From: Atractiella rhizophila
Taxonomy: Eukaryota
Direction of reading: 5' to 3'
DNA: 46,608 nucleotides
Assembly (NCBI GenBank): GCA_021432655.1
Contig: MU271441.1
Coordinates: 19,096-65,703 of the forward strand
Numbering within the stretch: the stretch's first letter is position 1; every line of letters starts with the position of its first letter. This document shows positions 20,048 to 41,649 of the stretch, piece after piece. The notes below the pieces were generated by a model that was given only the letters and a program-made list of their open reading frames with translations, was not told the origin of the DNA and did not search any database. The position numbers and the translations under genes were made by a program.

Positions 20048-20623
20048 TCGTGATCCTTTCGTACGAGCAACACAAGCATCGTGAATTTACGCTGTCCCGC
20101 AGAAGATTACGCAGGAGGCATCTCCTTGATCCGTCCTCTTACGCTGGGTTTGTCTCCGGATCATTTCCCATTGACGACTCCTCCATTGAATTGACAGAGA
20201 GATCCTACAGTCCCTGCTCAGCTCGTTGTAGTGTCGCAAGCTCCGTCATAAACAATAATGAAATGCTAAGCTCTGTGAAATGCCCTTTCGTACGAAAGGT
20301 TATGCTTTCTCGTACGAAAGGTTATGCTTTCTCGTACGAAAGGTTATGGTCTCTCGTCGAAGGGTTGAGCTCTCTCGTACGAAATGTTATTTCTCTCGTA
20401 TGAAAGGTTATTCCTCTCGCACGAGGGTTTATTCCTCTCGGACGAAAGGTTATGCTTCTCGTTGCATTTCCTACGAAATCCTAGGTGACACTATGAGGTC
20501 GTTGATGGGGAACTGATCGGGAGAATCCCGCGTAAGGGGACGGATCAAGGAGACGACGAAAGTATTTTCTGCGGGACAGCGTAAGATCACCATGCCTGTG
20601 TCGCTCGTACGAAAAGATCACGA
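20048..20623. mobile_element. foldback/MITE-like structure: long inverted arms enclosing a 22-bp tandem array
   Basis: 20048-20180 is the reverse complement of 20495-20623 (TCGTGATC.TTTCGTACGAGC.ACAC..GCAT.GTGA..TTACGCTGTCCCGCAGAA...TCTCCTTGATCCGTCC.CTTACGC). Confidence 0.75.
20281..20465 (+). repeat. 22-bp tandem array, about 8 units of TCGTACGAAAGGTTATGCTTTC
   Basis: Period 22 visible directly; units degrade toward the right. Confidence 0.9.
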
Positions 20624-20951
20624 CGAAAAGATTCGGAAAATACGATATCCTCTCGACCGAAAGAATCAGGAAACTATCCTCTTGTACGAAAGGATCGGGA
20701 AAGCGAACAAATCCCTGCCCTACTTAAGGTAGTATGTCTTCACTTTCTCTCTCAGCAATCACCGTTGCCTGATAACCATCATCGTGTGACTCATACATTC
20801 CCAGTTCGGCCATCCTCGCGCTGTCCCAGCTATCTGCAACGTAACGCACCTGTACTCGTATTCCGTCAATTTTGCTGCAGGTTGACACGATTGGACCATC
20901 CTGTCCTTTCTTCTCCGGCAACCGCCTTCACTGTTTCTACATAGGTTTATA

Positions 20952-21674
20952 GTGGCAGAAATCGGAAGGTATTATCTAGCGCATCGCCGTCTCACTTTCA
21001 CAACGGTGCGACGACCTGAACTGCTGGAGCGTCGTCCGCGTTTTCAACTTGACAGCAATGGGAGACCTCTCCGGATCGCTGATGCCTCAAGTCGCTACGA
21101 CAAGTATTTGCGATTGACCTACTTCGCCAGACGCCTGTGTGGGTTGAGGAGGGCTTTCAATCCTTTTTTGGAGTTCTCGGCTCTTGCTGCTTCAATCGCT
21201 GCGAATCCGACCTCTTCCATCGAAATCAGGAGTGGTTTTGCTGTCACAGGAATGGTCATCTCCTCCATATCTTGCCTCACCTTTGTGTCTGGGATCCTCG
21301 TCGAAGTTTTGGAAACCAAATTACGACGACTTATTCTGGAAGTCGCTCCACAAGGATCCCTAACACAGAATCACATTCGCTCAAATTTCATCACGAACAT
21401 CACCTCCCTCAAACGCCACTCGGCAGTTTTCGTTGCCTTCGCAGATATCGCGGCTTCTGTAGCTTCCCATCCTGACATATCTGAGACGAGGAGGAGATCG
21501 TTCGCCTTCGCCGGGATCATGCTTGCCGCCATTGGATGTGCTCTCTACATCGTCAGCGGGTTAACGTCTCTTCTTGTCACGGATGGTATCGTGGACGATG
21601 TGGCGAAGGATGCAAACATGCCGGTCGACCTCAATGCTTTTAGTTCTCGCTCTTCGACGCTCAGCCCAGATTAG
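20952..21674 (+). CDS. hypothetical membrane protein with an internally duplicated two-helix hydrophobic unit; true start probably in an upstream exon
   Basis: Uninterrupted 240-codon ORF with two similar blocks: FLEFSALAASIAANP..IRSGFAVTGMVISSISC..FVSGI and FVAFADIAASVASHP..RRSFAFAGIMLAAIGC..IVSGL. The GTG start overlaps a TTTATAG acceptor-like site. Confidence 0.6.
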   Translation: MAEIGRYYLAHRRLTFTTVRRPELLERRPRFQLDSNGRPLRIADASSRYDKYLRLTYFARRLCGLRRAFNPFLEFSALAASIAANPTSSIEIRSGFAVTGMVISSISCLTFVSGILVEVLETKLRRLILEVAPQGSLTQNHIRSNFITNITSLKRHSAVFVAFADIAASVASHPDISETRRRSFAFAGIMLAAIGCALYIVSGLTSLLVTDGIVDDVAKDANMPVDLNAFSSRSSTLSPD

Positions 21675-22356
21675 GACGACATTGGATTACGTTGCGGGGT
21701 GCCTCCCTCATCCCAGCTTCAAGATCTTTCGCGGCTTCCTGTCGTAACCAAGGGATTCCTCGACAAGAGGTTGAGGAGCTCCGAGGCTTGATAGTATTGC
21801 TCCGCAATGTATGGAATATATTCAGTCTTCAGCACAACCTCAGCGTGCAAAAACAACAGCTCCAGGGTCAAGCTTCATTAACAAGAATGTAACAGTCCAG
21901 CTCATCCTCCTTTGGAAATGCAGTTACTGTGATTGCGATCTATGTTTCCAGAAGTAAGGAACGCCTGACAACACAAGGCGGTCTCAAGAGATTCGAAGCG
22001 GCGGAAATAGCTTCCCAGTCTGCCACCACCTTCGACTTCCCCTGCCTGCGCTCAATCCCCTCCAGTTAAGCGGTTCCGAATACGTTGTTCCCCTTTCTTA
22101 ACCCCAAACATCGAGTTCTGGCATACCATGTCACTGCGAAACCGCCAACTCGCAAAAATGATGGATGCTAACGTGTGAATAGGCCGGGAACCGATCATAA
22201 TGTAATAGTAATAGTAATCAACGGTAAGCATTCAAGTTGCCCCACGGATTGGGACTCTGCTCCTTATGTGTATCCAAAAATCAAGCTCACATTTGCAAAA
22301 TCAGTAACTGAGACACAGCAAATCGCACAGTCCTCTTTCATATGGGCTTTTAGCTT

Positions 22357-22397
22357 CTCTTCACTCTTCACTCTTCACTCTTCACTCTTCACTCTTC
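22357..22397 (+). repeat. (CTCTTCA)n microsatellite, about 6 units
   Basis: Perfect 7-bp period. Confidence 0.95.
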
Positions 22398-24035
22398 GCA
22401 ATACTGCTTCTAGCCCTTCGACGTCTCCAAAGCCTGATTAGATGACAACCCCGTTCCCTTTCTTTTTGCATTCTCTGACCGGGACGCCAGAGCCTCGTTA
22501 ACATAGCATAGAGATGTGTGAGGAAACGAAGCAAGCACGCCTGAAACACTCAAAGAGTTCACAAACGCTGAGAACAAGCGGTTCAGGCTGTTGGTGCAGC
22601 CCTAAGATCATGGCGAGGTTCGTAGGAGAAAGAGGGTGGTAGAATAGAAAGGTGCGTCCAGCTCGGGAAGAAAAGCGGACCTTTGGAAGCGCGTTTACAG
22701 TAAGTACAGCTGACATGAATGAAATAACATTTACTCACCTCCCACACAAGTGCAGCAAGGCTTAGGGCAAGCTCTACAGGATGGTGGTTGTGTGTGAGGG
22801 AAAAGGTCACAGAATGAAGACTGCGAAAGAACTGACTCATAATAACACGACACTGATAAATGGGAATGATATATTGTATTTGTATCACAGTGACACCACC
22901 CTATACGCTTGCAACCTTGTTCTCTGGAAGAGGTATTCAAGATGCATCACCTTCGGGACCTTTATTCTTGTTACCGCGGTATCACACATTACTGGACAAT
23001 TATCCGTTAGTCACCTCAGTCTTCTCTCTGGTGTCAATGGCCATCGAGACACAAAACGGAACAATGAGCCGCTTTTATAATCCTCGGAGCATTTCACTTT
23101 TTCTGTTTTGAAGTGGCGTCGTACTAGAAATTCTTCAGGTACTTCCCTGGATCTCGGTGGGTCGACTGTGGTAGCTGGCAGACTTTTCCGCATTTTCTTA
23201 GTCATTCCTACATAAACAGCTCCAGGCAGTTGCCTCATTCATTGGCTTCTGTACCGACATGTGCACGCTAGGAAACATTTTCCGACATGACCGCTTTCCA
23301 TCCACGGACACGTGAGCAGCCGATTCACGGCGCCATGCAGACTTATCTTCTCTGTGCTTCGTTCAAGTTCCCAAATTGACTTATTTCAACTTCTTTCCTC
23401 CCAAGAAACGCCATATCGCATGGCTGGTAAGCCGGTTCCTTCTATAATATCAGCCAGTTCCGACACGTGAACTGTAGCTGGCATTCTTGTCCAACAGGCA
23501 TCTATCAACAAGGAATGATGACATTTTAAATGCCACAAGCTAACCAATGATTCGATTCTTAAGGTTGGTCGCACATCGTTACATGACGTTTTCCCATAAT
23601 ATTCAACCATATTAGATGTTGACCTGGATAATTCGTCGTGATCATAAATCAACATCGGTCCAATTCGCCTTGAAGAACTCCAATCCTATGACCATGAACC
23701 TTGCCCCAAGTTGCTCCTTCAAGCTTTCATAGTTGGACCATTGTTTTCGGGTCAAGTAAATAGTTGGAACTCCATCGGACAGATGTTGAAACGTGAGGTT
23801 TTCCAGCTGATCCGTCCAAGTTGCAGCGGAAAAAAAGGTAATGAACGGTGCATATCCTCCGTCGCCGACGTAGGTATTGTTGGTTATACAAGGCGTGTGG
23901 TGACGCGAACGCAAAGCAACTTGAAATCGGGACGTGAGACTTTTGGCGGCGCACGAACCTTGGCTGAAAGTTGAAGAATCAAAAGTACAATCGCCCCAGC
24001 GTGAATTAGGATCAGAGAAACTGCCTGAGAGGCGC

Positions 24036-26783
24036 AAAGCGTTATTTGGCCACGAAGCTCCACCGCGTTATCGGCTCCATTCTCAAAGTCGCTTGGGGTG
24101 GCATCATCGTCGCCGCTTCCAAGGTATTGTTTCGCGCTTGCAGAGAGAATTTGGTGGCGCCACAGCAGAGAACAGAAATATTGCAGTTTACCATAGTCGG
24201 AAAATCAGGAGCGGGCTACACTTCACCCCCTTCCACCTCTTTCTCCAAATCAGCTTCACCTCACTTCATTCACCGGTGAAGTACATGGTATCAGGAGGTG
24301 AAGTGAAGTGGTATCGGCCAACTCTGGTTCGAAGGATTGATGGAAGAGAAATGGGACCTACGAGTGCAGCAGCGCTGAGTTTGGCGCCGAGGATTATAGC
24401 GTCGACATACCAAGTGTCCCACAGAAAGTTCGTGAGGACAGAAGGCAGGAGAGAGAAGTTTGACGGACCCAACCCATGGCGAAAGATAAGGAAGGGTCGA
24501 CGACTCTCTCCTCAATCCCATGCTGACCTGCTTTCTCCTCCTCAAGTCTATGTCGTCGGTGTTAAAACTGGTATGGACTTTGCAAGTCCATCAAGCAGAT
24601 AGTAAGCAAAAGAAACACCAGCTAATGCCACTGGTGGGTCAGTGGAGATGTGACCAATCGTGCGAAACGGTTCGTTAAGGCCAGAAGCTGCACGAGCTCT
24701 TCTAAGATACAAGGACATACCATTCTATTGGTAGTAGTAAGAGGGGGCGAAACTTGTTCCAGGACCTACATCCGGAAGTGTTGACAAAGGTCGAGAGTCC
24801 GGAGGAGGAACAGGTGTCAATGGAATGGGGAGGACCGCAGGTTATGTAAGTCGATTGTTTCTACACGAAGCTTGGCTGCCATACCTTCCAGGCCACATGG
24901 CTTTCTCTTCCTCAGGTAGAATGGTCGTTCCAGTCGCCATTCTCTCTGTCCGCAGCAAATTCATAATTGAATCCCAAATCCTTTCCTTTTCCCGATCTCG
25001 CATCCCTTCGACCGTTTGCCCTTCAAGGCTGTTTGAAGCTTCTATTTCGTCCAGTTCAGCCCTTGTTCGACTCCGATAAGGACAACTTACCAAGAGAACG
25101 CTCAACGCCTCCCTTGATTTTACTCCAAGCTCTTTAGCATGCATCAAACCCATCCTTGTCCTTCCAACACTATCGTATGCGAGCCTGGCACTTTCGTTGT
25201 CTATTATCACCACGAAATCACCCGTCGCTTATCAAGGAATATATCAACCTTACGCTATTTTTTCACCTTCCAGCCTTATTCCGTTTTGGATTCACCACCT
25301 TTGAATCGCCTAATCCAAACAATGCCTCGAAACCTGTCTTCGCATCCAATGCCCTGTTCTTCACCAGAACCTGTAACCTTCGTCCGAGTCGAGGTATACG
25401 CGAAGCCAGTTTGTGGGTCGTGTACTTCCAATCCTTTGCCTCCAGCTGAAACCAATAGCCTGTCAGGTCATCCCGCTGTGATGTTCGAAACCCTCATCTT
25501 TCCTGCTCGCAAGACCGCCGCACGAATCTCCATCATTCCCACTTGCAAAGTCCTGACAGCATCACCGTACTCCTCGAACTTCGAAGCCAGTCCAGCGTTG
25601 TCATTTGCGGTGTTGTGCTGAGGAGGTAAATCCGGACGTGTTGATGGCTTCGACTCCACCTGAAGAAGGAGAGGACGGAGAGGAGATATCGAATACTGTA
25701 AGCGAGGAGGAAATGTGCCAAGTCCACCTGATCCAGAAAGCGGAAAAGGCTATAGGTTCGAGGGAAGGTTTGGAACGAAAGAAGGTTGGAATCAGTAAAG
25801 AGAAGGTCAACGCAAGAACCACAATCGCCTTCCACCCGTGCACTCTTTTACTGCCTCGATCTCCTGTCCCTTGTGATGGCCGCTAGTAGGAGATTGGTTT
25901 GTTGATGCTTAGCATCTTTCGTGCTCTGGTGCTGAGTTGCGTTATAACCTGCTGCCTTGCAGGATGTGAAACTTACACACTTTATAAACCAGGAGTATAG
26001 AATAGTCACGAAAGAGTAAAGTGGTAATAAAGTGAAAACACAAGAACAAGGAGCAAGTGATCAATCAGGAGAAACAATGAACGACAACACAAAGATAGTT
26101 CGAGAACAATTACCACTCAAGCGAGATGGCAACATGAACGTTGAACTGTAACTATGGGTCTAAGAGTAAGTCAAAGTAGTTGGAAGTTGTAGGCTGCAGG
26201 TGTGAACATGCCATCGTTTAGAGCTGGACAATCTTCACTTCCCTTAGTCGCGTTATTCCCTTTTCTCTTGTCTTTGGTAGTGAATAGTTTGTTTTTTTCT
26301 GACTTGCGTTTTTTTTGTTCTTCTCGCAATGGCGACTTGTGTGACTGATTTTCGTCAATCCCCGACCAGAACGACTTCTCGAACGGAAAGAAGTTCAGAG
26401 ACGGCCTTTGTCGGCAAAATGATCGCCCCCACGCAGACAAAAGATCGTTTGCGCTTTCAATGATGACCCAAAGGGCCACACTTAACTTTCCATCAGTTTT
26501 ACAAAGACCAACTCGATCCAATCACTTCAATTCTCAGCCCCAGAGGGGCTGCATCTACCCCATGTGGCCACGACTGGCAGTTGGATCCTTTCAGACTGTT
26601 TGGGACAGTTTGGGGATGGTTCAGGAACTCCATGTTTTGTTTCTTCACCTTGCTGGATCCGACAGGTCTTACAGAGTGTTTGGGGATGGCAAAGTGCTTT
26701 TAAACCTCATTTACCCTCATTTTCAACGTGTTCACGCCATCAGGCCGCAATTTTGTTCGGCTCTCGCACTCAACCCCTGGAAC
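24036..26783 (-). repeat. copy A of a large inverted segmental duplication; includes the 5' part of a FunK1-like gene, truncated at RGQITL
   Basis: Colinear reverse-complement match to 33739-36766 along its length (e.g. ATKLHRVIG, KWYRPTLVRRIDGREMGPTSAA, EGDCGS, LHVLFLHLAGSDRSYRVFGDGKVLLNLIYP occur in both). Confidence 0.92.
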
Positions 26784-27003
26784 GAGGTTATGTTTCTCGT
26801 ACCAAAGGGTATGTCTTCTCATATTTAAGGTTAGTTATCCACGCTGCAGTCCTGGGGAAGGTTACGCTGTCTCGTACAAAAGGTTATTTCTCTGTTACGC
26901 AAGGTTATGACCTCTCGTACGAAAGGTTATGACCTCTCGTACGAAAGGTTATTCTCCTCGTATGGAAGGTTATGTTGTCTCGCATGAAAGGTTATGCCCT
27001 CTC
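26784..27003 (+). repeat. 22-bp tandem array (CCTCTCGTACGAAAGGTTATGA)
   Basis: Same unit as 20281-20465; starts exactly where homology of copy A to copy B stops. Confidence 0.9.
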
Positions 27004-27052
27004 TTTTCAGAAGCACAGGTCATACTGTAGAAAGCTTTGCTCTGTGCAAAGG

Positions 27053-27180
27053 GTGAATAAGCTCTCGTACGAAAATATCGAGCAAGTGAATAAGCTCTCG
27101 TACGAAAGTATCGAGAAAGTGAATAACCTCCCGTACGAAAGCGAAAGTAACGAGAAAGTGAATAACCTCTCGTACGAAGG
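27053..27180 (+). repeat. 33-bp tandem array (GTGAATAA(C/G)CTCTCGTACGAAAGTATCGAGAAA), 4 units
   Basis: Units start at 27053, 27086, 27119 and 27158; single related units at ~19755 and ~32593. Confidence 0.9.
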
Positions 27181-27924
27181 CATCCACGGCGCAGAGCTGC
27201 TTAAATATGCAAAATGGTTCTTTACCAACAGGCAAGTCCATGCGGGAGTTGCATTAACCCTCTCAACGGCTCATCGACTCCTACAAATTCTTATATAAGG
27301 CATAAGAACTATTCTACAGCCCTCGAATTATAATCCATAACTTGTCGACCGCAGGTAGTGGAAAAAAATTGCGGTATTTGTCCCGGCTTTTAATTTACAT
27401 GTACACTGATGTCGTGTCATCAAGGAAAGGTTACTCATTGTCTTTGTCTTCATGGAGATTGATCCCCCAAGAGAGGGTAAAGCTAAGGACGCACTGGAAA
27501 TGACATCACATGTTTCCAACCTCCAGCCTTGCAGTCTCCCTCAGCTCTAGGAGAGAGAACAGAATGGGCCACTAGTATCTGGCGTGCTAGAGCAGAACCA
27601 CTTGAGCAGACGGTGAGAGAAGAAGTTCTGGGCATGATAAATCTTGTCCCAGGGGTAGTTGAGAGGGATTGGATCCTTGATAAGGTATGTCTTATCTCAA
27701 GAGCTACACCTGCTTACATTGATGACCTACAAAGTTTTACAACCATGTAAAGTCTCTTGCCCTCCTCAACGAAGTGTATTTTTGACAAACAGCGGTCCAC
27801 ATAGCCGGATTGGACACACCGTTGCATCCATTTCCCAATTTTCATTTCTGAAGTCAACTTTTTTATTCTCGGCACTGTCTCCTCCTTTCACCTGGCCAAG
27901 CTTTTCCTCAGACCAGTATCGATC

Positions 27925-28209
27925 TGCTATGGCTAGCCTTTTTTTTCCAGATCTTATCAAACGGAATGGAAGCAGGACTGGTGAAATCACGTGGTCTGGA
28001 GGGGTTTTCTGAACTTTCACGCGAAGAGGTCCAACAGAAATTTCCAACAAGGTATTAAAAGAGGTTAGGTCGGAGATTCGCCAACCCCTCTTCACCATCT
28101 TTTCAGCTTGCTACCTTGTTGGATATTACCCAAAGTCTTGGAAAAGCTTCACGACGGTCATTCTCAGAAAGCCCAAACGACCGGATTACTCCCTTCCTTC
28201 AGCCTACCG
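27925..28209 (+). mobile_element. Tad1-like LINE ORF2 fragment (start of the RT domain), normally oriented
   Basis: LFFPD...FSELSREEVQ, then EISNKVLKEVRSEIRQPLFTIFSACYLVGYYPKSWKSFTTVILRKPKRPDYSLPSAYR, the usual fungal LINE RT lead-in. Confidence 0.9.
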
Positions 28210-29198
28210 TAGAACTAACAGGACCACCGTTAGCTCTATGCACGTGATGAAATCCTCTATAAGGGGTATAGGAAATCAGAGCGCCGAGCTTCTTCGGACC
28301 TGAGGGTAGGCGGTAGAGTGAATCTGCGAGGTGTTAGCTCAAGCTAATTACATAGCAATGAGTTTAACCTAAAGCTCTTGTGTGAGTGGATACGGTGAAC
28401 CGTCAAAAATCCCCGGTAAGTTAAATAAATCCTCAGCCTCAGCCAGCCGTAATTTTGACGAGGTCTTCGACAACTTTTCAAAACCTGACTTTACAGCGTT
28501 TTGGTTTCGCGTTATGTCATAACTCGCTCGCGCGAACTCTCACGTTTGACAAAGGGTTAGCAACGAGTTTTACCAACACACGAAATCATAACTCTTGCAA
28601 ACGTCGGTTTTCGCTGCAGTGTTGCTCTGGTGAAATAGCGGCTAGTAGCTAGTGAGGTAGAGGCGACTAAATGGTTGCAGGCCTGCAACAAACCTTTGCT
28701 AACTCGTTGCTGGTAGTTAGGGTGAACGTCTAGTTCCCGGTCCGCGTTCACGGTGTCGGAACAAATACCTTCTAGCGGTCGTTTTGACGTAAAGCGTAAG
28801 TTGGTCGTAAGTTTGTGGGTGGTTACGTAGGCTTGAAAGCTGAAGTCAGGGAAAGCGCTGTCTACGGTACTAACACCTGAAAGGCGTTAGGCTGGTGGTG
28901 CTTGGGGGAAGTAAACAAGGAAGACTAAAGTATGGGCCGTTCGTGAGTAACCAGCGTGAACTTCTAGGAGCCGCCGCTTGCGAGGGTGTTGGCCACGGAA
29001 GAAAGCCCGTGCGTCTTTTGCAGACATTGTCAGGTTAATTATTGGGTCCTGGATTAGGTTAAAGCCGGATGTTATGTAGACAACACGGAGTAAACGTTGT
29101 GCCTGAAGTCCATGGAGAAGTTTTAGGACGCGGAGGAGGGAAGGGTATAAAAGGTTCACTGATAAGCTTGCGAGGCTCGTCATACGTGGATGGGTGGT

Positions 29199-30780
29199 GA
29201 AACTGAGTTTGCCTGCAGATAGGAAGAACCCTTATTCTTGTATCCGTCACGTAGGTTTTTGAGCCTCCACACTATGACTTCCAAAGGAGAACTTCTCGTG
29301 AAGCATGCCACATCAACATAGGTAGTTACGGGCACAACCGTCAGAAGCCTATTGTACTTGTTCTCATCGTTCACGAAGTGGGGTTTTCGAACCACCATCT
29401 GATCTGAGACTCTCGTAACTTCACTAAGCAAGAAGTTCTCAAGCTAACTACGCAAGTCGTTGTGGTAAGACAACTCCTCTACGACATCGTCAGACGACTG
29501 CTTACTAAGGCCTAAGAAACTCTTTACGCAGTTTAAGCTCCCTCCTCATAAGAGGGGGACGTAGTAGAGACTAAAAGAATTCGACGACAGGTCAGACGAA
29601 GAGACGGTAGCAGAACTTCAGTGCTTTTCGAACTATACGAAGCGAAAAGAAAGCCTCTTCCATATGGGTACCCATAGCCCTTACCAGTAGATGTTTCCAG
29701 TAAGTTATAGCTTTAGGGGAACGCCAGGATTGGCCGTATCCAGGGAAATTTAGCCATACGTGTTCGAGTTCTTGAACACTCGAGGACGACCATCTATTAA
29801 ACCCTTTACCTACCGCTACAACAAAAGGAAACTACGTTGAAAGTGTGTAGAGTCCTTTAGGACAAAACGATAGGTACGCGTATAGAAATTGGTCTAGGAA
29901 AACATATTGGTCTAGGTCAGCTAGAAAGGGATACACTGTCTCTGCCGCTACGGTATTCAGATTCAGTACTCATACTGTACTGACTCGGAATCGAAGACAT
30001 GCGCGTTCTGACTCCTTAACTCACAATTGGAGACAATAAGGCAGGTTTCACCGTTGGAACAGGAGATAACAACGACACTTAGCTTAGAAAGGGAAAAAGC
30101 TCTTGAAATATTTCAAGAGTGCCTATTGTTAATGCATAACAAAATCCCTCTTCTGACTCTCCTCTAAACTAAAGTTGAAGCCTTGCATCTCTTGTAAAGA
30201 CTATTGATAACCGAAACATCCAACAAACAAACTTGCCTTTATATAGCTAGGAAAAGGAAGCCTCATCTACTACCAAGGTAGACGTTCAAGCTAGCCTTAC
30301 GCTACCAAGACCATTAGTAAGACTTAGGTTACCGCTACTCCGCAGTATCCTCGACACCGAGGTCACAGATGGCAGGTAGAATGTAGTCGGAAGAGGTAGC
30401 GAGGTAAGCGTTCGTTACGAGCATGAGACCGTCAGAAAGGTCGGAAGTGGTGGAAGTTAAAAAGAAATAAAAGAAGGAGCCTCAGTGGTCTACTACCTAG
30501 GAGGAAACTCGGTGATCGTTGGAAACGGAAACGGTAGGAAAAGAATAGGAAAGCAAGGAAAAACTTCCATAGAACCCGGAAGAAAGACTTTGCTGTGAGA
30601 CGGAGTCATACTAATAACATAGGTGTCTTACACGTTGACTCCGAACTTCCTCCAAATAAGCTATATCAGCATCCATCGAAGAAGTTCCTACCAACCTGTG
30701 CGTATCGATAAAGACTGAAGCGAAGAAACGCCCCGTAAGTACACTGGTATTAACAGTGACAAACAGCGAATAGAGGTTGT
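29199..30780. mobile_element. Ty1/Copia element (LTR stub, gag knuckle, protease, integrase), legible only backwards; truncated before RT
   Basis: Reverse reading starts TGTTGGAGATAAGC, then CTFCGYNNHTEAEC (CCHC), WTVDTGATAPMTPHRHW, VLYVPKLKSNLLSV, LWHRRLCH, CESCIKGKQ, VHTDLKGP, TFVDDHSRY, DDAGGEY, PQQNGVAERINRTL, FWGEA, HLRVFGCTAYV. One TGA at ~29705. Confidence 0.95.
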
Positions 30781-32191
30781 CAGAAACCTAAGCAGTATCG
30801 GTCCGGCGTTCGATGGGGAAGGAGACAGGAGCTCGGTAGGTACTTCTAGGTCTAGAGGGGGAGCAGAAGGAATTCAAGAAATTTCAAGACCTCTCGAAGA
30901 AGGAAACTTAGTCGCTACTTCCTCAGTTTACCTCCGTACACAGGACCCACTCACCTTTTCCTTCCCTACTAAAGCTCCAGAGCTCCATTCAACTTCACAA
31001 AGCTAGGCTGCTCTCCCAAGTCTCCCCTCGTCACAAAAGAGCCCCCCCGCCAACTCTACTCCACAACACGTTACTGAGGACGACCCAACCACAAGCCTTC
31101 CCTATCATCGGACTGGTACCGAGTACAATGATGAAACAGGTCAGACCGATACTGGCCTCCCTCCAAACTTAGCATCCTCTCTCGTCCCCGACCCCACCAC
31201 ACCTTCCGAGGATCGTACTCCGCAACCCGTATGGCAACCTGCTAAAGCTCCGCTCGGCGAGGAGGACGAAAGAAAGGTTCCACCACGGTCTATTACCGCA
31301 ACAACAGGCAGTAACGCGTCTAACGTCGGAGTTTCTCCGCGGCTATCACACTATCTCCATAAGGAAAACACCACAACCTCTCACAGCGGTCTTCCCTCTC
31401 GCTCCTGAAGCGGAAGAAGAGCTAGCGAAAATTTACTCTTAACTTTCAATCGGACCTTAGCTCCTCGTAAGGGTCCATAAAGTAGAGTTCGCTGACGAAA
31501 TACCAACATCTAGGATGTGCTTAACACTCGCACGGTTTAGCCCTGAAGTAGGGGAAGTCAAAGGGCATCTCCTGCTTCAGGCAGAACCGAAGGAGCTTTT
31601 ACCGTGGTACAAAGAGTGGGGTCTGGTAACGAAACAGCTCGTAGTGGAGCTCCAATGGTTACCGGCAGCCTCCCAAGCAGCGTGCCCGTAAGTACACCTA
31701 CAGCAGATGCTTGGGCGTAAACTCTCTAAGGGGAAGGCCGCGGACATAAAGTTCGTCTAGTCGTAACATTTTGTCCATCTCTTATCCTCTCTCCCCCCTA
31801 GGAACACGGTCAGGATACCGTTCCCGCTTACCGAAACTCCACATCGGCAGCTTCAACATCCAACAGAGGGATAGGTATTCGGTGCTAACCTACTAAAGTT
31901 AGAGCGAAAGACCCTGACGAGAAAAGGAATCCAGCAGCTAATCAGCTCCCACCTGGTGACACCCTTTCCGCGGAAACTGCAGGTTCCTCTGACTTCGGCA
32001 ATGGAGAGGGAAGGAGGTCGGAAGAGCTTACTTGACACAGGTGTCAATCATTCCGCAGCAAACACCTAGCTGGACCGGACCGTGGCTTCACTACCCTCCC
32101 CTCCCGTGGTATAGAGAGACGCACCTTCCACTCAGACCGACTCTATTACGGCAGCTTTTGGAAACGGTGTGTCAGGTCCTCTCGCTACCCG
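30781..32191. mobile_element. Tad1-like LINE RT + RNase H, legible only by reading the + strand backwards
   Basis: Reverse reading: PIALLDCVAKVF, LPSHHFGARPGRSTNDALL, SLDVKGAFPTV, GLAQGSPLSPILYLFYNADL, GFVDD (FVDD 31712-31701), KYLGMLLDSRLTF, LGAFHTTP, IWIFMDGSRTEEGV. One frameshift (~32040) and one TGA (~31123). Confidence 0.95.
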
Positions 32192-32216
32192 NNNNNNNNN
32201 NNNNNNNNNNNNNNNN
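32192..32216. other. assembly gap (25 N)
   Basis: Run of 25 N directly after the mirror segment. Confidence 1.
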
Positions 32217-32249
32217 AAATTGTGAAGTCGCTTCATAATCGTGGCCCCT

Positions 32250-32345
32250 TACTTTCGTGCGAAAGGTTATTTTCTCGCACGAAAGGTTGCGGTCCCTCGC
32301 TCGGAGGGTTATGCCCTCTCGTTCGGCTTCGGTGCGAAAAGGGAT
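32250..32345 (+). repeat. degenerate 22-bp array of the same family
   Basis: CTTTCGTGCGAAAGGTTATTTTCTCGCACGAAAGGTTG...GGGTTATGCCCTCTCGTTCG. Confidence 0.75.
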
Positions 32346-33738
32346 GGTTGTGAATGAAACAGTCATCTCACGAAACGATCATATTCAATAACTCTGGAGA
32401 TTACTCTTTCATACGTACCGAAGGCAAGGCCCTGGCTCACTTACTGAGCAATAATGACTGCAGGAGACGTTTTAGAGATCAGCATATCCAGCCGCTCAGA
32501 ACACTCGATTTTAGCGCAGTGGAATCGTTTGGTTGCTCAACGGCGGGGACATCCCCTTCGCAAAAACTAAGTGGTAGAATGCGGCGAAAGGAGGTGAATA
32601 ACCTTTCGGGCACGAAAGCATTGAGCACGTGAAACAGCAAGGCGTGGGTCCGCAGATGAATGGCCTTTCAAATATGGCGTGTATTCCAAAGGGGGGGGGG
32701 GGGGGGGGGTTTGAGAATGGATTGGCAGGACATGAGTACGACTACGACTACAAGTTATCTGTGTAAGAAATCAGACCAAACAAGAAGTGTCTGATAGGCT
32801 ATGGAGGAGAAAGAACTATTTCTATGACCAAAGCACCATCAACTACGGGACCTCGTTCCCGTTTACTAAGGATATAGGAGATTATCGGATGTCGATCTCG
32901 TACGAACGACTAATCGACATGTGCGCATTCGTCCCTGTGATCCCTGATGCAGTATTAAAGAGCCCAGTCGATCGCCATTACAAGTAGGCAACCTAGCCCA
33001 AAGAATCTTTCGTTCGTGCAGTGAATGACCGCTGACGAAGTGAATGCGCCGAACAGTCGAGGGCACAACGTTTGGTTATTCTCCGTTGCCCGCTCGTTTT
33101 GAATTCATCAACTCTTTGACTCAACATAATTACAGTTCAACCAACATCTCGCCCATCGCGTGTAAACGGCTGAACGAACGGACTCCTCGATTAGCCCGTG
33201 GGACGAAGATAAAAAGGCAGGCGTGGATGTTAGACGTTGTAAACGGGCGAGAGAGTTAGTACGCATTTCAATCTCGACATCTTTGCACAGGCATAGAGCA
33301 GGATGCAATCAGGTCTGTTACCCCATCGCCACCTGGCAAGTTTCCACGTCGTTAACTTCGGATAACTGAAGCTGATGCTCTCGCCTCAGTCTGATGAAAA
33401 CCAACCCGTCCCCTGATAACTAGCAGTCGACCGCGTGGCATATGAAGAGTGATAAAGTTGCTGGCTATGAAATGGGTTCAAGTCTTTGATGGAAAAGTTC
33501 AACAGCAGTTGGGGATTTAAATCGATTCCGCTTCTGCACCCTTTCCCGTACAAATCCAATGAAATACTGACAGTTCAGACTAAACAGTTGGAGTCGGAAG
33601 TCGACCCGCTTGGCTAACAAACCTCCAAAAATTGCGACTCCAAAGCCTTTAAACCGGCTGGCGGCCACCAGTTTGCTGGAGCGCCGCAGCTTGACCTCCT
33701 TTTTCAACTCGAAATTGATCCGCGGCCGTTCCTCCGTT

Positions 33739-36700
33739 GTTCAAGGGGTTGAGTGCGAGAGCTGAACAAAATTGTGGCCTGACGGCGTGGCCATGTTGAA
33801 AATGAGGGGTAAATGAGGTTTAAAAGCACCTTGCCATCCCCAAACACTCTGTAAGACCTGTCGGATCCAGCAAGGTGAAGAAACAAAACATGGAGCGCCT
33901 GAACCATCCCCAAACAGTCTGGAAGGATCCAACTGGGAAGTGGGGGAACTAGGGCGTGGAAGAAAGTCCGATTCAGACCCTCCGGGGTTGAGAATCCGGA
34001 GTGACCGTGAAGTGGGTGGCCATTGAGTCAAAATTGAAAGCGCAAACTATCTTTTTCGGGGGCGATCATCTTGCCCACTTCTTTCGTTCGAGGAAGTCCC
34101 TCTCTTCGTTCCAGTCGCCAGAGATGGACCAAAACTTCAGTCGTAAAGATCGCCATTGTGAGAGGAACAAAAAAAACGCTTGTCAGAAGAAACAAACTAT
34201 TCACTACCAAAGACAAGAGAAAAGGGTTTAACACGACTGTGGGAAGTGAAGATTGGTGCAACCCTGAACGATCGCGCGGTCACACCTGCAGCCTACAACT
34301 CCCTTTGACTTTCCCTTAGACCTATAGTTACGGTTCAACGTTCAACCCTCCATCTCGCTTGAGTGGTAATCGTTCTCGAACTATCTTTGTGTTGTCGTTC
34401 ATTGTTTCTCTTGATTGTTCACTCGCTCCTTGTTCTTGTTCTTGCGTTTCGTTTTGTTACCACTTTACTCTTTCACATCCTTCATGAGTATATAAAGTGT
34501 GTAAATATCAGAGAAATATTATTCACATCCTGCAAAGCGACAGGTTATAACACAACTCAGCACCAGAGTACGAAAGATACTAGGCATCAACAAACCAATC
34601 TCCTACTAGCGGCTGTCACAAGACAAGGGACAGGAGATAGAGATAGAGATGGGGAACCGCAGTAAGAAGAGTGCACAGTGGAAGGCGATTGTGGTTCTGA
34701 CGTTGTCCCTCTCTTTGCTGTTTTCGACCTTCTTTTGTTCCAAGCCTTCCCTCGAACCTATAGCGTTTTCCGCGCTTCTAGATCAGGTGGACTCGGCCCA
34801 TTTTCTCCTCGCTACAGTATTCGATATCTCCTCTCCGTCCTCTCCTTCTTCAGGTGGAGTGGGAGCCATCAACACGTCCGGATCTACCTCCTCAGCACAA
34901 CACTACAAATGACAAAGCTGGACTGGCTTCCAAGTTCGAGGAGTACGGTGATGTTGTCAGGACTTTCAAGTGGGAATGATGGAGATTCGTGCTGAGGCCT
35001 TACGAGGCATGAAAGATGTTCGGCGAGGGTTTCGCAAATCACAGCAGGGATGACCTGAAAGGTTAATGGTTCAGCTGGAGGCAAATGATTGGAAGTACAC
35101 GAAGAACAAACCTGCTTTGCATATACCGTACTCTTTGGATTGGAGTGGACAGGGTGGAGACCGTCACAAGTATGGAAGCAAATATGAGTCACAATTTAGC
35201 GGACTGACCACTCAAAGTCCGTTACCCAATCCGAATAGTGGAAAGTCCGAATCTGACATCCTAGAAATTTGGAGCTAGTGCACAAACTGTTGGTATTCAC
35301 CCCGTTGGGACTGTTTGAACATTCTAATGCAGTGTGAGGGAGTTGAAATGAAGGAGTAGGCGTTCTAGCTGGCTGGGGACTGGGAGTAAGTTTCGAGCCC
35401 AGGGACACATTTGACATTCCGAAAATGGTAGGACGTGGGAGAAATCACAGAGACTGCTCCTAAAAGCCATCCAGCTGGAGCACCAATGCTTTAATGGAAT
35501 CCAAGCCACCACCACTGCTCAACAAAGCTCCCATTCTACAATTTTCAACCATCCCTCCAACCCTTACCCCGACCTCTTACCACACCTTGTTAACCTCATA
35601 CACCATCCGAATACACTGAAAGATTTCCATGGTTGTTTGGGAGAGAGAAGAGAAGTGAATTGCAAAGAAGAATGTGTGGGACGGAAGCCACCCAAGGATG
35701 ACCAAGTTCACGACACAACGAGTGGAGCTTGCAACCAGCGTTACTGAACTTTGTTGACCTGCTTCCTTTTTCTGGAATGGTCGCGCGTTACACGTTACAT
35801 GCCCCAAAATAGTGGACTGGAATGCGGTTGGTGTTACGCGTTACAGTCCACTCCAATCGAAAGAGTACGGTACCTCGACTCGAACGAAGGCCACAGGGAC
35901 GGACATTCTACCTGCGGAAGAGAAAGCCATGTAGCCTAGAAGGTATGGCAGCTAGCTTCGTGTAGAAACAATCGACTCACATAACCTGCGGTCCTCCCAT
36001 TCCATGACACCTGTTCCCGGACTCTCGACTTTTGTCAACACTTCCGGATGTGGGTCCTAGAACAAGTTTCGCCCTCTTACTACTACCAAATAGAATGGTA
36101 TGTCCTTGTATCTTAGAAAGAGCTCGTGCAGCTTCTGGACTTAACGAACCGTTTCGCACGATTGGCCACATCTTCACTGATCCACCAGTGGCATTATCTC
36201 GTCTTTCTTTTGAAATTCATACCAGTTTTAACAGCGACGACTCAGAATTAAGGAGGAGAAAGGAGGAGAGAGTCGTCGACTCTTCCTGTCTTTCGCCATG
36301 GGTTGGGTTCGTCAAACTTCTCTCTCCTGCCTTCTGTCCTCACATACTTTCTGTGGGGCAATTGGTATGTCAACGCCATAATCCTCGGCGCCAAGTGCAG
36401 CGATGCTGCACTCGTAGGTCCCATTTCTCTTCCATCAATCCTTCGAACCAGAGTTGGCCGATACCACTTCACTTAACCTCCAGATACCATGTACTTCACC
36501 TCCCGATACCATGTACTTCACCGGTGAATGAAGTGAGGTGAAGCTGATTTGGAGACAGAGGTAGAAGGGGGTGAAGTGTAGCTCCTGTTTTTCCGACTAT
36601 AGTAAACTGCAATATTTCTGTTCTCCGCTGTGGCGCCACCAACTTCTCTCTGCGACGAAACAATACCTTGGAAGTGACATCGGGAAGGGCGACGATGATG

Positions 36701-36766
36701 ATACCCCAAGCGACTTTGAGAATCCAGCCGATAACGCGGTGGAGCTTCGTGGCCAAATAACGCTTT
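33739..36766 (+). repeat. copy B of the large inverted duplication
   Basis: Reverse complement of 24036-26783, with a 745-bp insertion and a deletion of about 430 bp (copy A ~24935-25370). Confidence 0.92.
35126..35870. mobile_element. 745-bp non-autonomous Tc1/mariner-superfamily (pogo-like) element
   Basis: 25-bp TIRs CCGTACTCTTTGGATTGGAGTGGAC / GTCCACTCCAATCGAAAGAGTACGG (24/25 match), TA on both sides (35124-35125, 35871-35872); the empty site GCGTA-TA-CCTCGACTC is in copy A at ~25385-25400 (minus). Confidence 0.93.
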
Positions 36767-37895
36767 CTAACACTGTCATTCAAATCCTCCAACACAGGAC
36801 TCGCGTCTTTTTCAGCTGTATTGGTAGAGAAACAGCGCGCCTCGTTTGTCATTCTCGTGCTGGCACTGTCGTCCCCCAATTACAATAAGGAACCTTATCT
36901 TCATCAATTTTTGTTTCAGTGCGACCCTGTCGAGGAAGAAAATGCAAGGGATCGCCTCAGCCTTAGGGCTGACGATCCACTGTACGTCGTCAAGTTCGGT
37001 TTGGCGAGCTACTACATCTCGAAAGCTTTCACCGACTTTCACATATATCCTGTCGGTCGTAGCACGAAATGTTTCTACGCTTATTTCCCCCGTCTAAAGA
37101 AGCTTGTACTTTTGAAGGATATCTGGAGGAAGATGGAGTACGAAAAGGAAGGAGACACCATTCGCAAATTAAATGTTGCAAACGTTCCCGCCATTCTTGA
37201 CGACTACGACATCGAGGGCGACCTCCAGAAGATCGAGGGGCCTTATCGCCAAACGATGCAACGTTACGTTCAGGTAACTGACAAGATCGGACGCCGTCTA
37301 TCTTCCTGCACGTCCAGCTGGGAAATGGTCAGCGCAGTCTGTGAAGCTGTTCGTGGTATGTTTCTGTTGCTTTTTTGCTGTTTGTCTGACCAGCACACAG
37401 GTCACGAAGCTGCATGGGAGAGGACGAGCATCTTACACCGCGATATTTCCTCAGGCAACATCCACCATCAACATCTAACGACGAGCTAGCAGAATGGCAA
37501 GGACTTTTGATTGATTGGGAAATGGCAGAAGTCGTCAGAGTCATAACCCCGGACTACTCAATGTACTGTAAGTTCTCCTAGTTAACTGTACGACGCCATT
37601 CCTGAATCGTGAGCGATGCAGGGTACCCTTCAATTCATGATAGGCAAGGTGGGACGCCCAATAGGCGAGTTTCGATCTAGCTATGAGCTTGTGAAAGGAT
37701 GTGCGGATGCCTTCGAGGGTAAGCTGCTTTGCCTTCTCCGAAAACTGAGTGTCATCGCCGTCGGGTAGCTCATTTTTGCGCCTGGAAAGACCAGAAAAAT
37801 GTTGCACCGAGATATCTCTTCTGGGAACATTATTCTGGGTCCTATCTAAGAAGAGCGGCAGGGATATTTGATTGATTGGGAATTTGGGCTAGTAA
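36300..37895 (+). pseudogene. FunK1 (fungal-specific protein kinase) pseudogene, chimeric, with two catalytic-loop segments
   Basis: RGQITL..LQHRTRVF..ARLV, VGRSTKCF..VLLKDIWR..EGD, IGRRL..HEAAWE..ILHRDISSGNI..GLLIDWE..GTLQFM; then again VGRPI..SSYELV..MLHRDISSGNIIL..GYLIDWEFG. Stops and frameshifts present. Confidence 0.88.
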
Positions 37896-39739: not shown

Positions 39740-41649
39740 AGGACGACGGAATCCGTGTTACGTGCTCAATTCCATGAGTGTATAATGTGTAAAATAAAGT
39801 CAGCTCATCTGACCGTGACGTCTATCCTCTTGCAATATCATTCTCCATTGGCTTTACCTCCTTTTGCAATTCCATGAGGTGAGACTTTCCCTGCACTCGC
39901 AGTGTGGTCTTGAGCATAATGAGGTCATGTATGCTTTTTGGATCCAAGCAACAACGTCGTAAACCAATGGTATCGCGAGCTCCAGAAAAGATCCGCTCAA
40001 CTGCCACAGCACACCCTATCAACATTTATATCAGCTGGTGTATAAAGAGAGACTAACTCAATACGGAGATACTTACCTGGAATAGCCAAGATATCTCGAG
40101 CCAAATGTGCAAGGTTTTCAAGGTTGTCTGTTGACTCGTACTTCCAAAAGGCTAACGGATCAGAGTCCCACGCCAAAGCTTCGAACCTAAACAAATAATT
40201 GATCTCCTTCATCACAGCATCTTCAGCTCTTGCTCCTGGGCCTTGCCGAATCGTAGCAAGGAAATTAGCGGTCAGGTTTACCCTTCCTTTCATTGACTTT
40301 GGTAGCGGCTGCAGTTGAGAAGGAATGGGTTGTGAAGAGGTGCTGGGAGCTTTGTAGTACTGATACCGAAAGAGGTTAATGAAGTTCTGTTTATGCTGCT
40401 CAATCTCATCACGCTCGGAGTCAAACACGGAGGAGTCCAAGAAAGAGACACCAAGACGAGGATCACAGACTGCTCCATGTCTTAATTGGCTATGGAAAGA
40501 AGATCAAGAAATGACGCACTAATCGCATAGATGTAATACGGCGAGAGATCAGATCGATAATGGTAATCACTTAACTTGTAATAGCAGTCAAGGAGAGCTT
40601 GGCGATACTCCTTGTCTACTACTGTATTTGTGACCCTAGATATTTCTTCCTTGAGGAATCCGAGGAGAGAGTGGTACACCCCAAGTGTTTGGGAGAGGCA
40701 GGAAGCCTTGTTCATTGACATGTCGTATGTCGCCTGTCGGAAAATTGCAAGCCATTTGCACACCTATACGCAGTCAGTATACTGCAGTACACTGTACACA
40801 CAGCCCATCCCAAACAGATTTGAGGCTCTTGAGCCCACGTCGAAAACCGGAATCTGCTGAAGACTGGGGCGGTATCCAGAGAAGGCACAGTGGAAGGGGC
40901 AATCACTGTCTTCATCCTTGGAGGACAGCTGGGTCTGAAGGTGTTTGCATGTTGTATAAAGCCAGGAAGTAGTCTATACTTGATGGGTGAAAATTACCGG
41001 ATCAAGTGAAATAACACACATAATCTTGATCATGTCCTATCGTTGTAGCGGCTGCCATCAAAACCTCAAGCTCCTTGTATCCAGGAATGTCTGAGTTCCT
41101 ATCACACAATTAATAGTCAATGAACAGGACAAATCGTCAAGGGACATAGACATACGCTTCTCGTTCATGCTTCTTTTTCTCTGCCTCACTGATGGCAGTT
41201 CCTTCTTCATTATTCCGCTTCACCATGTCTACAATCTTGATTTGTCGAGCTGGCCTTTTGGACACCATGTTGATAGACCGTTTTGCGGGAATGACAAAAG
41301 CTCTAGAGGTCTGCCTCCTTTTATCGACTTTTTGGTTGGGAAACGGCAGGTCGAGAGGAGAGGCCGGGGTAACATTGTTGGGGAAGAATGTTCTGGAGGT
41401 CCAAGGACTGGGAATGGGTGGCAGAACGAACATCGTGGAGCTTCCATGTAATGTTGTCAGGTCAGAACCTATTGGACTGTTGACGAAGGACTTACGAAGA
41501 CGGGGTACACAACTTTGGCGCGACGCACGTCCTCCGTCCCATTAACAAAGCGGGCGAGTAACACGGGTCACTGTTCAGATCCCGCACGTCAAAAACGACG
41601 TCGAACCCGTACGGGTTTACGACCCGACCCGTCCCGTTGAGCATCCCTA
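39740..41649 (-). mobile_element. internally deleted hAT transposon
   Basis: TIR TAGGGATGC ending at 41649 with ACGGG/CCCGT subterminal repeats (41545-41640). Transposase remnants FRQAT..MS, YYKLSDY..SPYYIYA and dimerisation domain DPLAFWK..LAHLARDILAIPG/(intron)/AVAVERIFSGARDTIGLRRCCL (39822-40763). Left boundary uncertain. Confidence 0.88.

What the first reader, a model, noticed from the sequence alone, without database searches (positions are those of the whole stretch)
28210..32191. Four kilobases of mirror-written DNA: reversed without complementation, in frame with the flanking LINE RT
Seen: the LINE RT on the + strand stops mid-codon at 28209 (..DYSLPSAY-CG) and the next 3.98 kb are nearly ORF-free. 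Reading the + strand backwards from 32191 supplies the missing G and continues PIALLDCVAKVF through the RT motifs and RNase H, then a Copia polyprotein. Established: no known polymerase or recombination reaction yields a reversed, uncomplemented copy. Inference: a gap-extension tool pasted the extension with the wrong string operation; the adjacent run of exactly 25 N resembles the spacer I recall PBJelly using. Such segments are invisible to six-frame annotation and could be mistaken for novel dark DNA.
Basis: partly seen in the sequence, partly recalled or inferred. Interest (0 to 1): 0.9.

Follow-up and report, generated by a model that had tools for sequence, protein, structure and literature searches.

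The report
Backwards-written DNA block: assembly artefact
About four kilobases of this sequence record are written back to front without swapping the bases, which is a computer error beside an assembly gap and not a biological feature; it hides ordinary mobile-element genes from normal annotation.

Summary
Window 28210-32191 (3982 nt), directly left of the window's only N run (25 N, 32192-32216), is real DNA written in reversed letter order without complementation.

Four lines of evidence agree.
1. 150 proteins were fetched with the normally written left flank alone. They are non-LTR retrotransposon ORF2 proteins. 87 hit the letter-reversed block (best E 1e-75) and 0 hit it as written on either strand.
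2. The join is exact to the base. In 62 of 63 references that reach the junction from both sides, one residue is left over: the codon split as CG|G.
3. A k-mer direction test trained on the rest of the window picks out 28175-32331 and nothing comparable elsewhere. TA/AT is 0.69 outside the block and 1.73 inside.
4. Read-derived contigs of a public run that align up to 28209 continue with letters matching the block read backwards from 32191 (27/30). As written the match is 5/30.

Read backwards, the block holds the LINE reverse transcriptase up to the first residues of RNase H. A Copia-type gag knuckle, protease and integrase follow, then about 845 nt unassigned.

The cause is a string-handling error during gap extension or editing. 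PBJelly is plausible (25 N is its gap minimum) but unproven. This is not a real genomic feature.

The parts
27878..28209 (+). 5'-truncated non-LTR retrotransposon (LINE) ORF2 fragment, written normally. It ends two bases into a codon (CG) just before the conserved RT start.
   Evidence: tblastn of ORF2 references: flank HSPs run from window 27878/27923/28016/28028 to 28207. 148 of 150 references hit this flank. No endonuclease homology lies upstream in 26001-28209. One in-frame TGA at 28010-28012.
28210..32191 (.). The block written in reversed letter order without complementation (3982 nt). The true order is 32191 down to 28210, following 28209.
   Evidence: 0 of 150 references hit it as written and 87 of 150 hit it reversed. 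The k-mer direction score is negative only here: change point 28175-32331, sum -70.1, against -7.2 for the next segment. The loose end of read-derived contigs at 28209 matches the backward reading from 32191 at 27/30.
30747..32191 (.). Continuation of the LINE ORF2, read right to left: RT domain and the following region up to the first residues of RNase H. One frameshift near window 32035-32047; in-frame stops at 32048, 31124 and 30740.
   Evidence: P0006 aa 545-613 align to reversed nt 2-208 and aa 596-1003 to nt 156-1388 (E 1e-75, 38% identity). No HSP of any reference passes reversed nt 1445. RT motifs lie at window 31965-31982, 31785-31805 and 31701-31712; the RNase H start lies at 30831-30845 (motif names recalled).
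29055..30737 (.). Copia-type (Ty1/copia order) polyprotein fragment, read right to left in the same frame: gag zinc knuckle, aspartic protease, integrase zinc finger and DDE core. It lacks the gag N-terminus. One in-frame stop at 29705.
   Evidence: Motifs: CX2CX4HX4C at 30594-30635; DTGA at 30357-30368; HX4H..CX2C at 29835-29951; D..D-35-E at 29454-29753. A home-built HMM from 5 E. coli IS transposases carrying Pfam rve hits reversed nt 2490-3137 at E 1e-9; the next best of 1282 ORF pieces scores 1.2. Assignment to Copia rests on domain order (recalled knowledge).
28210..29054 (.). The far end of the extension in true order (it should abut the gap). No recognisable coding sequence. A 274-aa P/S-rich stop-free run lies on the other strand of the reversed string (28412-29233).
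   Evidence: Its composition is reversed like the rest of the block: the cumulative score falls from 28200 to 29000. Translations and ORF list. No reference hits.
32192..32216 (.). Run of exactly 25 N (scaffold gap); the only N run in the window.

Best explanation
Window 28210-32191 is not a sequence that exists in the organism. It is a real 3982-nt stretch of the genome: the continuation of a 5'-truncated LINE, followed by a Copia-type gag-protease-integrase fragment. A program or an editor wrote this stretch into the record in reversed letter order without complementing it.

The stretch belongs directly after 28209 and runs towards the 25-N gap. It therefore behaves as an extension of the left contig into an unclosed scaffold gap that was pasted in after a wrong string operation. 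That operation was either 'reverse' applied to a plus-oriented extension, or 'complement without reverse' applied to a minus-oriented one. Both give this result.

Shown: the reversal, its exact left boundary, its end at the N run, and disagreement of read-derived contigs with the junction as written. Inferred: that the step was gap extension or gap filling, and which tool did it. PBJelly is possible, at roughly one chance in three by my estimate.
For: (1) 150 proteins were retrieved by phmmer with the normally written flank alone (window 28013-28207). 14 of 14 long ones scanned carry Exo_endo_phos_2 and RVT_1, and 6 of 14 also RNase_H. In tblastn, 87 of 150 hit the reversed block (143 HSPs, best E 1e-75) and 0 of 150 hit it as written on either strand. 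Of 78 references with at least 100 aa downstream of the flank match, 72 hit.

(2) The hits are collinear. All 87 lie on plus frames of the reversed string and downstream in the query. In 62 of 63 references whose alignments reach the junction from both sides, exactly one residue is unaccounted for: the split codon.

(3) A direction test needing no reference was run: an order-3 Markov model trained on the rest of the window. Every 1-kb window lying wholly outside the block, and both that overlap it by under 300 nt, scores as-written over reversed (+1.4 to +37). All 8 windows from 28001 to 32500 score negative (-9.6 to -31). The change point lies at 28175-32331 with sum -70.1, against -7.2 for the next segments.

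(4) Public run X1: 2 contigs aligned up to 28209 go on with a consensus that matches the block read backwards from 32191 at 27/30. It matches the window as written at 5/30, and 18/30 is the best match anywhere else.

(5) The integrase HMM hits only the reversed reading, at E 1e-9.

(6) The block ends exactly at the window's only N run, 25 N. In PBJelly, 25 N is the threshold that defines a gap, and unclosed gaps get flank extensions (PMC3504050 passages; PMC6240028 passage).

(7) Established knowledge: DNA strands are antiparallel, and templated synthesis and recombination give reverse complements, never a reversed uncomplemented copy.
Against: No raw reads were laid, only Logan contigs, and only on the as-written version. 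The loose end at 28209 comes from one run (X1, 2 contigs, agreement 0.88, 3 of 30 letters different). The flank is a repeat (depth 300-970), so these contigs may come from other copies of the same LINE family rather than from this locus. X1 and X2 are one sample and one study and may be the source of the assembly.

No assembly methods, AGP file or tool log could be seen, so the step and the tool are inferred. No paper found describes such a bug.

The LINE-to-Copia junction inside the block (LINE cut within RNase H, Copia cut within gag) is not a normal nested insertion and is unexplained. The extension itself could be chimeric. Six of 78 long references did not hit the reversed block.
Confidence: 0.95

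Rival explanations
1. The reversal was made by hand or by a generic script during finishing or submission, for example a 'reverse' button used instead of 'reverse complement' in a sequence editor. It was not made by a gap-filling program. The biology is the same as in the best explanation; only the origin of the error differs.
For: The end state is identical, and nothing in the window identifies a program. No published bug report was found. There is only one block in this 46.6-kb window.
Against: The block sits exactly between a contig end and a 25-N run, as an automatic flank extension would. Hand-finishing a TE nest in a draft fungal-type assembly is unusual (inference).
Confidence: 0.2
2. 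The block was put there on purpose. Either it is a decoy or null sequence (reversed, uncomplemented DNA is a standard negative control), or it is a planted test in the data given to this scan.
For: Reversed uncomplemented genomes are used as null sets, as seen in a passage of the RRE preprint 10.64898/2026.04.14.718546. Dfam (PMC3531169) appeared in search listings only.
Against: A decoy would not continue the flanking codon to the base and stop at an N run. Nothing else in the window is reversed.
Confidence: 0.03
3. The DNA exists as written: a true 'mirror' segment in the genome made by an unknown process.
For: None beyond the record itself.
Against: Contigs built from reads leave the window at 28209 and follow the reversed reading, 27/30 against 5/30. 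No known polymerase, ligase or recombinase makes a reversed uncomplemented copy, and joining one in would need 5'-5' and 3'-3' links (established knowledge). The block keeps codon-level homology only when reversed, which selection on real DNA could not maintain.
Confidence: 0.005
4. An ordinary inversion (reverse complement) or a run of unrelated, fast-evolving non-coding DNA; the reversed ORFs are then chance.
For: A 2.7-kb inverted repeat brackets the locus, so inversions are conceivable here.
Against: tblastn searches both strands, and 0 of 150 references hit the block as written. A true inversion would have hit on the minus strand. E 1e-75 and exact codon continuity exclude chance.
Confidence: 0.002

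Closest known systems
Flank extension of an unclosed or 'overfilled' scaffold gap by a long-read gap filler (PBJelly; English et al. 2012, PMC3504050, passages read)
   Same: New sequence is added to a contig end and runs towards a remaining N run. The N run has the length (25) that this program uses as its lower limit for a gap.
   Different: A correct extension is written in the contig's own orientation. Here every letter is in reversed order without complementation.
Reversed, uncomplemented sequence used as a null or decoy set in repeat and homology benchmarking (a passage of 10.64898/2026.04.14.718546; Dfam, PMC3531169, search listing only)
   Same: The transformation is the same. It has the same property of keeping length and base composition while destroying all homology and swapping XY/YX dinucleotides.
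   Different: Those sets are made deliberately and kept apart. This one sits inside a genome record, joined in frame to real sequence.
Non-LTR retrotransposon ORF2 with APE endonuclease, RVT_1 and RNase H domains (for example P0006, P0025 and P0045)
   Same: The flank plus the reversed block align collinearly with residues of about 435-1040 of such proteins at 28-38% identity.
   Different: The copy is 5'-truncated (no endonuclease) and broken by one frameshift and stops. It is cut off within the first residues of RNase H, and it has no 3' end or tail.
Ty1/copia-type LTR retrotransposon polyprotein (gag - protease - integrase - RT order; recalled knowledge)
   Same: A zinc knuckle, a D[ST]G protease motif, an HHCC finger and a D,D-35-E integrase core follow each other in that order. 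There is no room for an RT between protease and integrase. The integrase core is supported by a profile at E 1e-9.
   Different: There is no gag N-terminus, no RT/RNase H and no LTR.

Membership tests
Reversed-uncomplemented assembly artefact | No homology as written, on either strand | tested here: met
   0 of 150 ORF2 references hit the block as written at E<=1e-3. 0 Pfam families on its four ORFs of 95 aa or more. The rve HMM scores 2.5 at best as written.
Reversed-uncomplemented assembly artefact | Strong homology once the letters are reversed | tested here: met
   87 of 150 references hit, best E 1e-75. rve HMM E 1e-9.
Reversed-uncomplemented assembly artefact | The reversed block continues the normally written flank without loss or gain of a base | tested here: met
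   62 of 63 junction-reaching references leave exactly one residue, the split codon; 1 of 63 leaves 7.
Reversed-uncomplemented assembly artefact | Direction-sensitive k-mer bias is flipped inside the block and only there | tested here: met
   TA/AT is 0.69 outside and 1.73 inside. The order-3 log-likelihood ratio is negative only for windows 28001-32500. Change point 28175-32331.
Reversed-uncomplemented assembly artefact | Independent read data follow the reversed reading at the junction | tested here: met
   Loose end at 28209 in run X1 (2 contigs): 27/30 to the backward reading and 5/30 as written. Contigs only, one run, possibly from paralogous copies.
PBJelly flank-extension product | Extension abuts a remaining gap of the program's minimum size (25 N) | tested here: inconclusive
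   The 25 N are present. The papers say that 25 or more N define a gap and that 25 is the default minimum. Neither says the program leaves exactly 25 N.
PBJelly flank-extension product | The assembly was processed with that program, and a version that reverses extensions | not testable with these tools
   No assembly record, methods or whole genome is held. No bug report found.
Non-LTR retrotransposon (LINE) ORF2 | RVT_1-type reverse transcriptase | tested here: met
   Collinear tblastn alignments to proteins whose RVT_1 domain Pfam places at, for example, aa 533-783 of P0006. The RT motifs were located. Pfam could not be run on the reversed-derived protein itself.
Non-LTR retrotransposon (LINE) ORF2 | APE-type endonuclease upstream of the RT | tested here: not met
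   No reference residue before about aa 435 aligns anywhere in window 26001-28209. The copy is 5'-truncated.
Non-LTR retrotransposon (LINE) ORF2 | RNase H domain and 3' end | tested here: not met
   HSPs stop at reversed nt 1445 or earlier. Only the first RNase H motif is present, at window 30831-30845.
Ty1/copia LTR retrotransposon | Integrase (rve, DDE) directly after protease, before any RT | tested here: met
   Motif order in one frame. The rve-type HMM hits reversed nt 2490-3137 at E 1e-9.
Ty1/copia LTR retrotransposon | RVT_2-type reverse transcriptase and LTRs | tested here: not met
   Nothing recognisable lies in reversed nt 3138-3982. No direct repeat of the block occurs in the window. 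No RVT_2 reference was available, so the RT test was by eye only.

The most novel reading that the evidence does not exclude
The block is one instance of a systematic, so far undescribed software fault. In that case a gap-extension step has written reversed, uncomplemented extensions beside short fixed N runs in this assembly and in other public assemblies. That would seed databases with kilobase blocks of non-biological 'orphan' DNA that six-frame annotation and repeat masking cannot see. A simple k-mer direction scan like the one used here would find them.
Probability: 0.35. Interest if true: 0.5.

Novelty: not a real feature. Interest (0 to 1): 0.3.

Why it matters
For biology it matters little: once read in the right order, the block is a broken LINE next to a broken Copia-type element.

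For data quality it matters more. About four kilobases of a genome record correspond to no molecule. They have no homologues, escape repeat masking and can yield spurious orphan ORFs (up to 133 aa here). They could also be mistaken for novel or 'dark' DNA. If the fault lies in a program, other assemblies will carry the same kind of block.

The order-3 k-mer direction score needs no reference. It separated the block from every other part of this window, so whole assemblies could be screened cheaply.

Tried and rejected
- Depth of Logan contigs on window 24000-36000. All 11 bins from 24000 to 28410 and all 10 bins from 32020 to 36000 have depth in X1 and X2. All 9 bins from 28411 to 32019 have depth 0 in all 3 runs.
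- Whole genome: none is held. A search for further blocks in the assembly was therefore impossible.
- The search for homologous proteins with the 65-aa flank, longer proteins: 3 candidates, none scored. The references came from the HMMER search instead.
- blastn and tblastn of the reversed block against the window itself. One 43-nt match (86%, at 15456-15498) and no protein hit, so there is no normally written copy of either element in the window.
- Pairwise tblastn of E. coli rve transposases against the reversed block was weak (E 0.002 and 0.037, in the right frame and place). The profile built from them was needed.
- Other long reversed-reading ORFs elsewhere in the window, for example 25633-26301 (223 aa) and 41118-41666 (183 aa). 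They have no reference hits, and the k-mer direction there is normal. Taken as chance.
- Names of the nearest references: 4 looked up, of which two carry names ('ribonuclease HI' and 'hypothetical protein') and none an organism name.
- Earlier notes of this scan: none for this genome and none by words.
- Literature. Six searches found no paper describing reversed, uncomplemented blocks as an assembly error, and no statement that any gap filler does this. Only CC-licensed PMC and bioRxiv full texts were searched.
Full report
WHAT WAS CHECKED

The window is TE-rich, fungal-looking DNA. Pfam on 100 stop-to-stop ORFs of 95 aa or more finds a KDZ transposase with CxC1/CxC2, a fungal protein kinase fragment and a hAT dimerisation domain. 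That scan finds nothing in 28210-32191. The only N run is 32192-32216, exactly 25 N. No whole genome is held for the window.

THE OBSERVATION

The + strand frame that starts at 28013 reads a LINE-like peptide and ends at 28209, two bases (CG) into a codon. As written, the next 3982 nt have a longest stop-free run of 133 aa. Reversed without complementation, they give stop-free runs of 307, 127, 344 and 216 aa in one frame, separated by single stops. A further 274-aa run lies on the other strand. Joined in a script, the flank plus the reversed block reads straight through the conserved start of a non-LTR reverse transcriptase, with the G at 32191 completing the split codon.

HOMOLOGY TEST

I therefore fetched references using only the normally written flank. 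phmmer with window 28013-28207 (65 aa) against 1.84 billion representatives gave 403 hits at E<=1e-3, and the best 150 were kept. Of these, 14 of 14 long ones scanned carry Exo_endo_phos_2 and RVT_1, and 6 of 14 also carry RNase_H. They are non-LTR retrotransposon ORF2 proteins.

tblastn of all 150 against the block gave:
- 87 hit the reversed string (143 HSPs; best P0006, E 1e-75, 38% identity over 412 aa).
- 0 hit the block as written on either strand. This also rules out an ordinary inversion.
- Of 78 references with at least 100 aa beyond the flank match, 72 hit and 6 did not.
- None hit the right flank 32217-36000.

EXACTNESS OF THE JOIN

P0006 residues 484-543 align to window 28028-28207. 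Residues 545-613 align to reversed nt 2-208, and residues 596-1003 to reversed nt 156-1388. Across all references whose alignments reach the junction on both sides, 62 of 63 leave exactly one residue unaccounted for, which is the split codon; one leaves 7. All 87 are collinear and on plus frames of the reversed string. The left boundary is therefore 28209/28210 to the base. There is one frameshift about 150 nt into the block.

COMPOSITION TEST WITHOUT ANY REFERENCE

Reversal swaps each dinucleotide XY with YX. TA/AT is 0.69 in the rest of the window and 1.73 in the block. CA/AC is 1.25 against 0.76, GA/AG is 1.09 against 0.86, and CG/GC is 0.84 against 1.11.

An order-3 Markov model trained on the rest of the window prefers the as-written direction in every 1-kb window lying wholly outside the block, and in both that overlap it by under 300 nt (+1.4 to +37). 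It prefers the reversed direction in all 8 windows from 28001 to 32500 (-9.6 to -31). For the whole block the difference is -81 to -118 nats at orders 1 to 4. A change-point search on a 4-mer score returns 28175-32331 (sum -70.1). The only other negative segments in the window are two short ones, at -7.2 each. The last 845 nt of the block, which have no recognisable genes, are reversed like the rest.

READ DATA

The left flank 18210-28209 is held by three public runs kept as Logan contigs: X1 (0.83 of the words), X2 (0.79; same sample and study as X1) and X3 (0.33; another organism label). I laid them on window 24000-36000. In X1, two contigs that align up to 28209 continue with a loose end of median 52 nt, with agreement 0.88 between them (table 7). 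Its 30-letter consensus matches the block read backwards from 32191 at 27 of 30 positions. It matches the window as written at 5 of 30, and nothing else in the window at better than 18 of 30.

Caveats: these are contigs and not reads. They come from one run of a sample that may be the assembly's own source. The flank is a repeat, so they may derive from sister copies of the LINE. Either way, real DNA of this element continues in the reversed order. The depth table is reported under Tried and rejected, as the tool requires.

WHAT THE BLOCK HOLDS IN TRUE ORDER (32191 DOWN TO 28210)

1. LINE ORF2. RT motifs lie at window 31965-31982, 31785-31805 and 31701-31712. Homology to references runs to reversed nt 1445 at most (window about 30747). 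Only the first motif of RNase H is present, at 30831-30845. Together with 27878-28209 this is a 5'-truncated copy without an endonuclease, with stops and one frameshift.

2. Copia-type fragment, in the same frame from about window 30737 to 29055. It has a gag zinc knuckle (30594-30635), an aspartic protease motif (30357-30368), an HHCC finger (29835-29951) and a D,D-35-E core (29454-29753). A profile built from five E. coli K-12 IS transposases that carry Pfam rve finds this ORF at E 1e-9. The next best of 1282 ORF pieces, drawn from the block and the rest of the window in both letter orders, scores 1.2. Protease followed directly by integrase is the Ty1/copia order (recalled knowledge). No Copia RT, LTR or gag N-terminus was found.

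3. Window 29054-28210: nothing recognisable.

The LINE-to-Copia junction cuts both elements internally. It is not a normal nested insertion, so it may be a genomic deletion or a chimera of the extension. This is unresolved.

HOW IT AROSE

The block belongs after 28209 and points towards the gap, and as written it ends at the N run. That is the geometry of a one-sided extension of a contig into a gap that was not closed. Either of two errors gives the observed string: reversing a plus-oriented extension, or complementing without reversing a minus-oriented one.

Passages of the PBJelly paper state three things: 25 or more N define a gap, flanks are extended when a gap cannot be spanned, and N are left when a gap is only reduced (PMC3504050). 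A passage of PMC6240028 confirms 25 as the default minimum gap. Six literature searches found reversed uncomplemented sequence only as a deliberate null set, for example in a passage of 10.64898/2026.04.14.718546. None found it as an assembly error.

VERDICT

The artefact interpretation is supported by four independent kinds of evidence. The responsible tool is not established. The block is not a genomic feature. Its value is as a data-quality warning and as a worked example of a cheap screen for such blocks.

Noticed in passing
window 24036-26783 and 33739-36766: A large inverted repeat: about 2.7 kb per arm, in 20 collinear pieces that are 76-98% complementary. It brackets the whole locus (LINE, reversed block, gap). 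Contig joints on opposite strands (26029/34481 and others) and loose ends at 24036 mark it as a repeat with a sharp outer edge. It may be two head-to-head copies of an element, and it may be why the assembly broke here.
   Followed up: partly
window 26858-27003, 27053-27178 and 32240-32330: Minisatellites of 22-nt and 33-39-nt units lie left of the LINE. Units of the 22-nt kind recur in direct orientation just right of the 25-N gap (repeat family D1, copy at 32274-32323). The LINE/Copia nest may sit inside one repeat array.
   Followed up: no
window about 30740 (reversed nt about 1445-1560): Inside the block the LINE stops within the first residues of RNase H, and a Copia-type gag zinc knuckle begins about 100 nt later in the same frame. 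Both elements are cut internally. This could be a deletion, a recombination or a chimeric extension.
   Followed up: partly
window 28412-29233: A 274-aa stop-free, proline/serine-rich reading lies on the other strand of the reversed string. It overlaps the end of the integrase region, has no match to any reference used, and may be chance.
   Followed up: no
window 961-3062 (- strand): KDZ transposase (Pfam E 1.4e-20) with CxC1/CxC2 cysteine clusters (E 3e-23), split over two ORFs. A DNA transposon relic.
   Followed up: no
window 36761-37486 (+) and 40000-40503 (-): A fungal protein kinase (Pkinase_fungal) fragment at E 8.7e-12, just outside the right arm of the inverted repeat, and a hAT dimerisation domain at E 2e-4.
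   Followed up: no
window 33624-34024 and 26406-26806: Very high summed contig depth (5200-16470 and 1949-4400, against about 100-1000 nearby) in runs X1 and X2. These are high-copy repeats lying in the inner ends of the two inverted-repeat arms.
   Followed up: no
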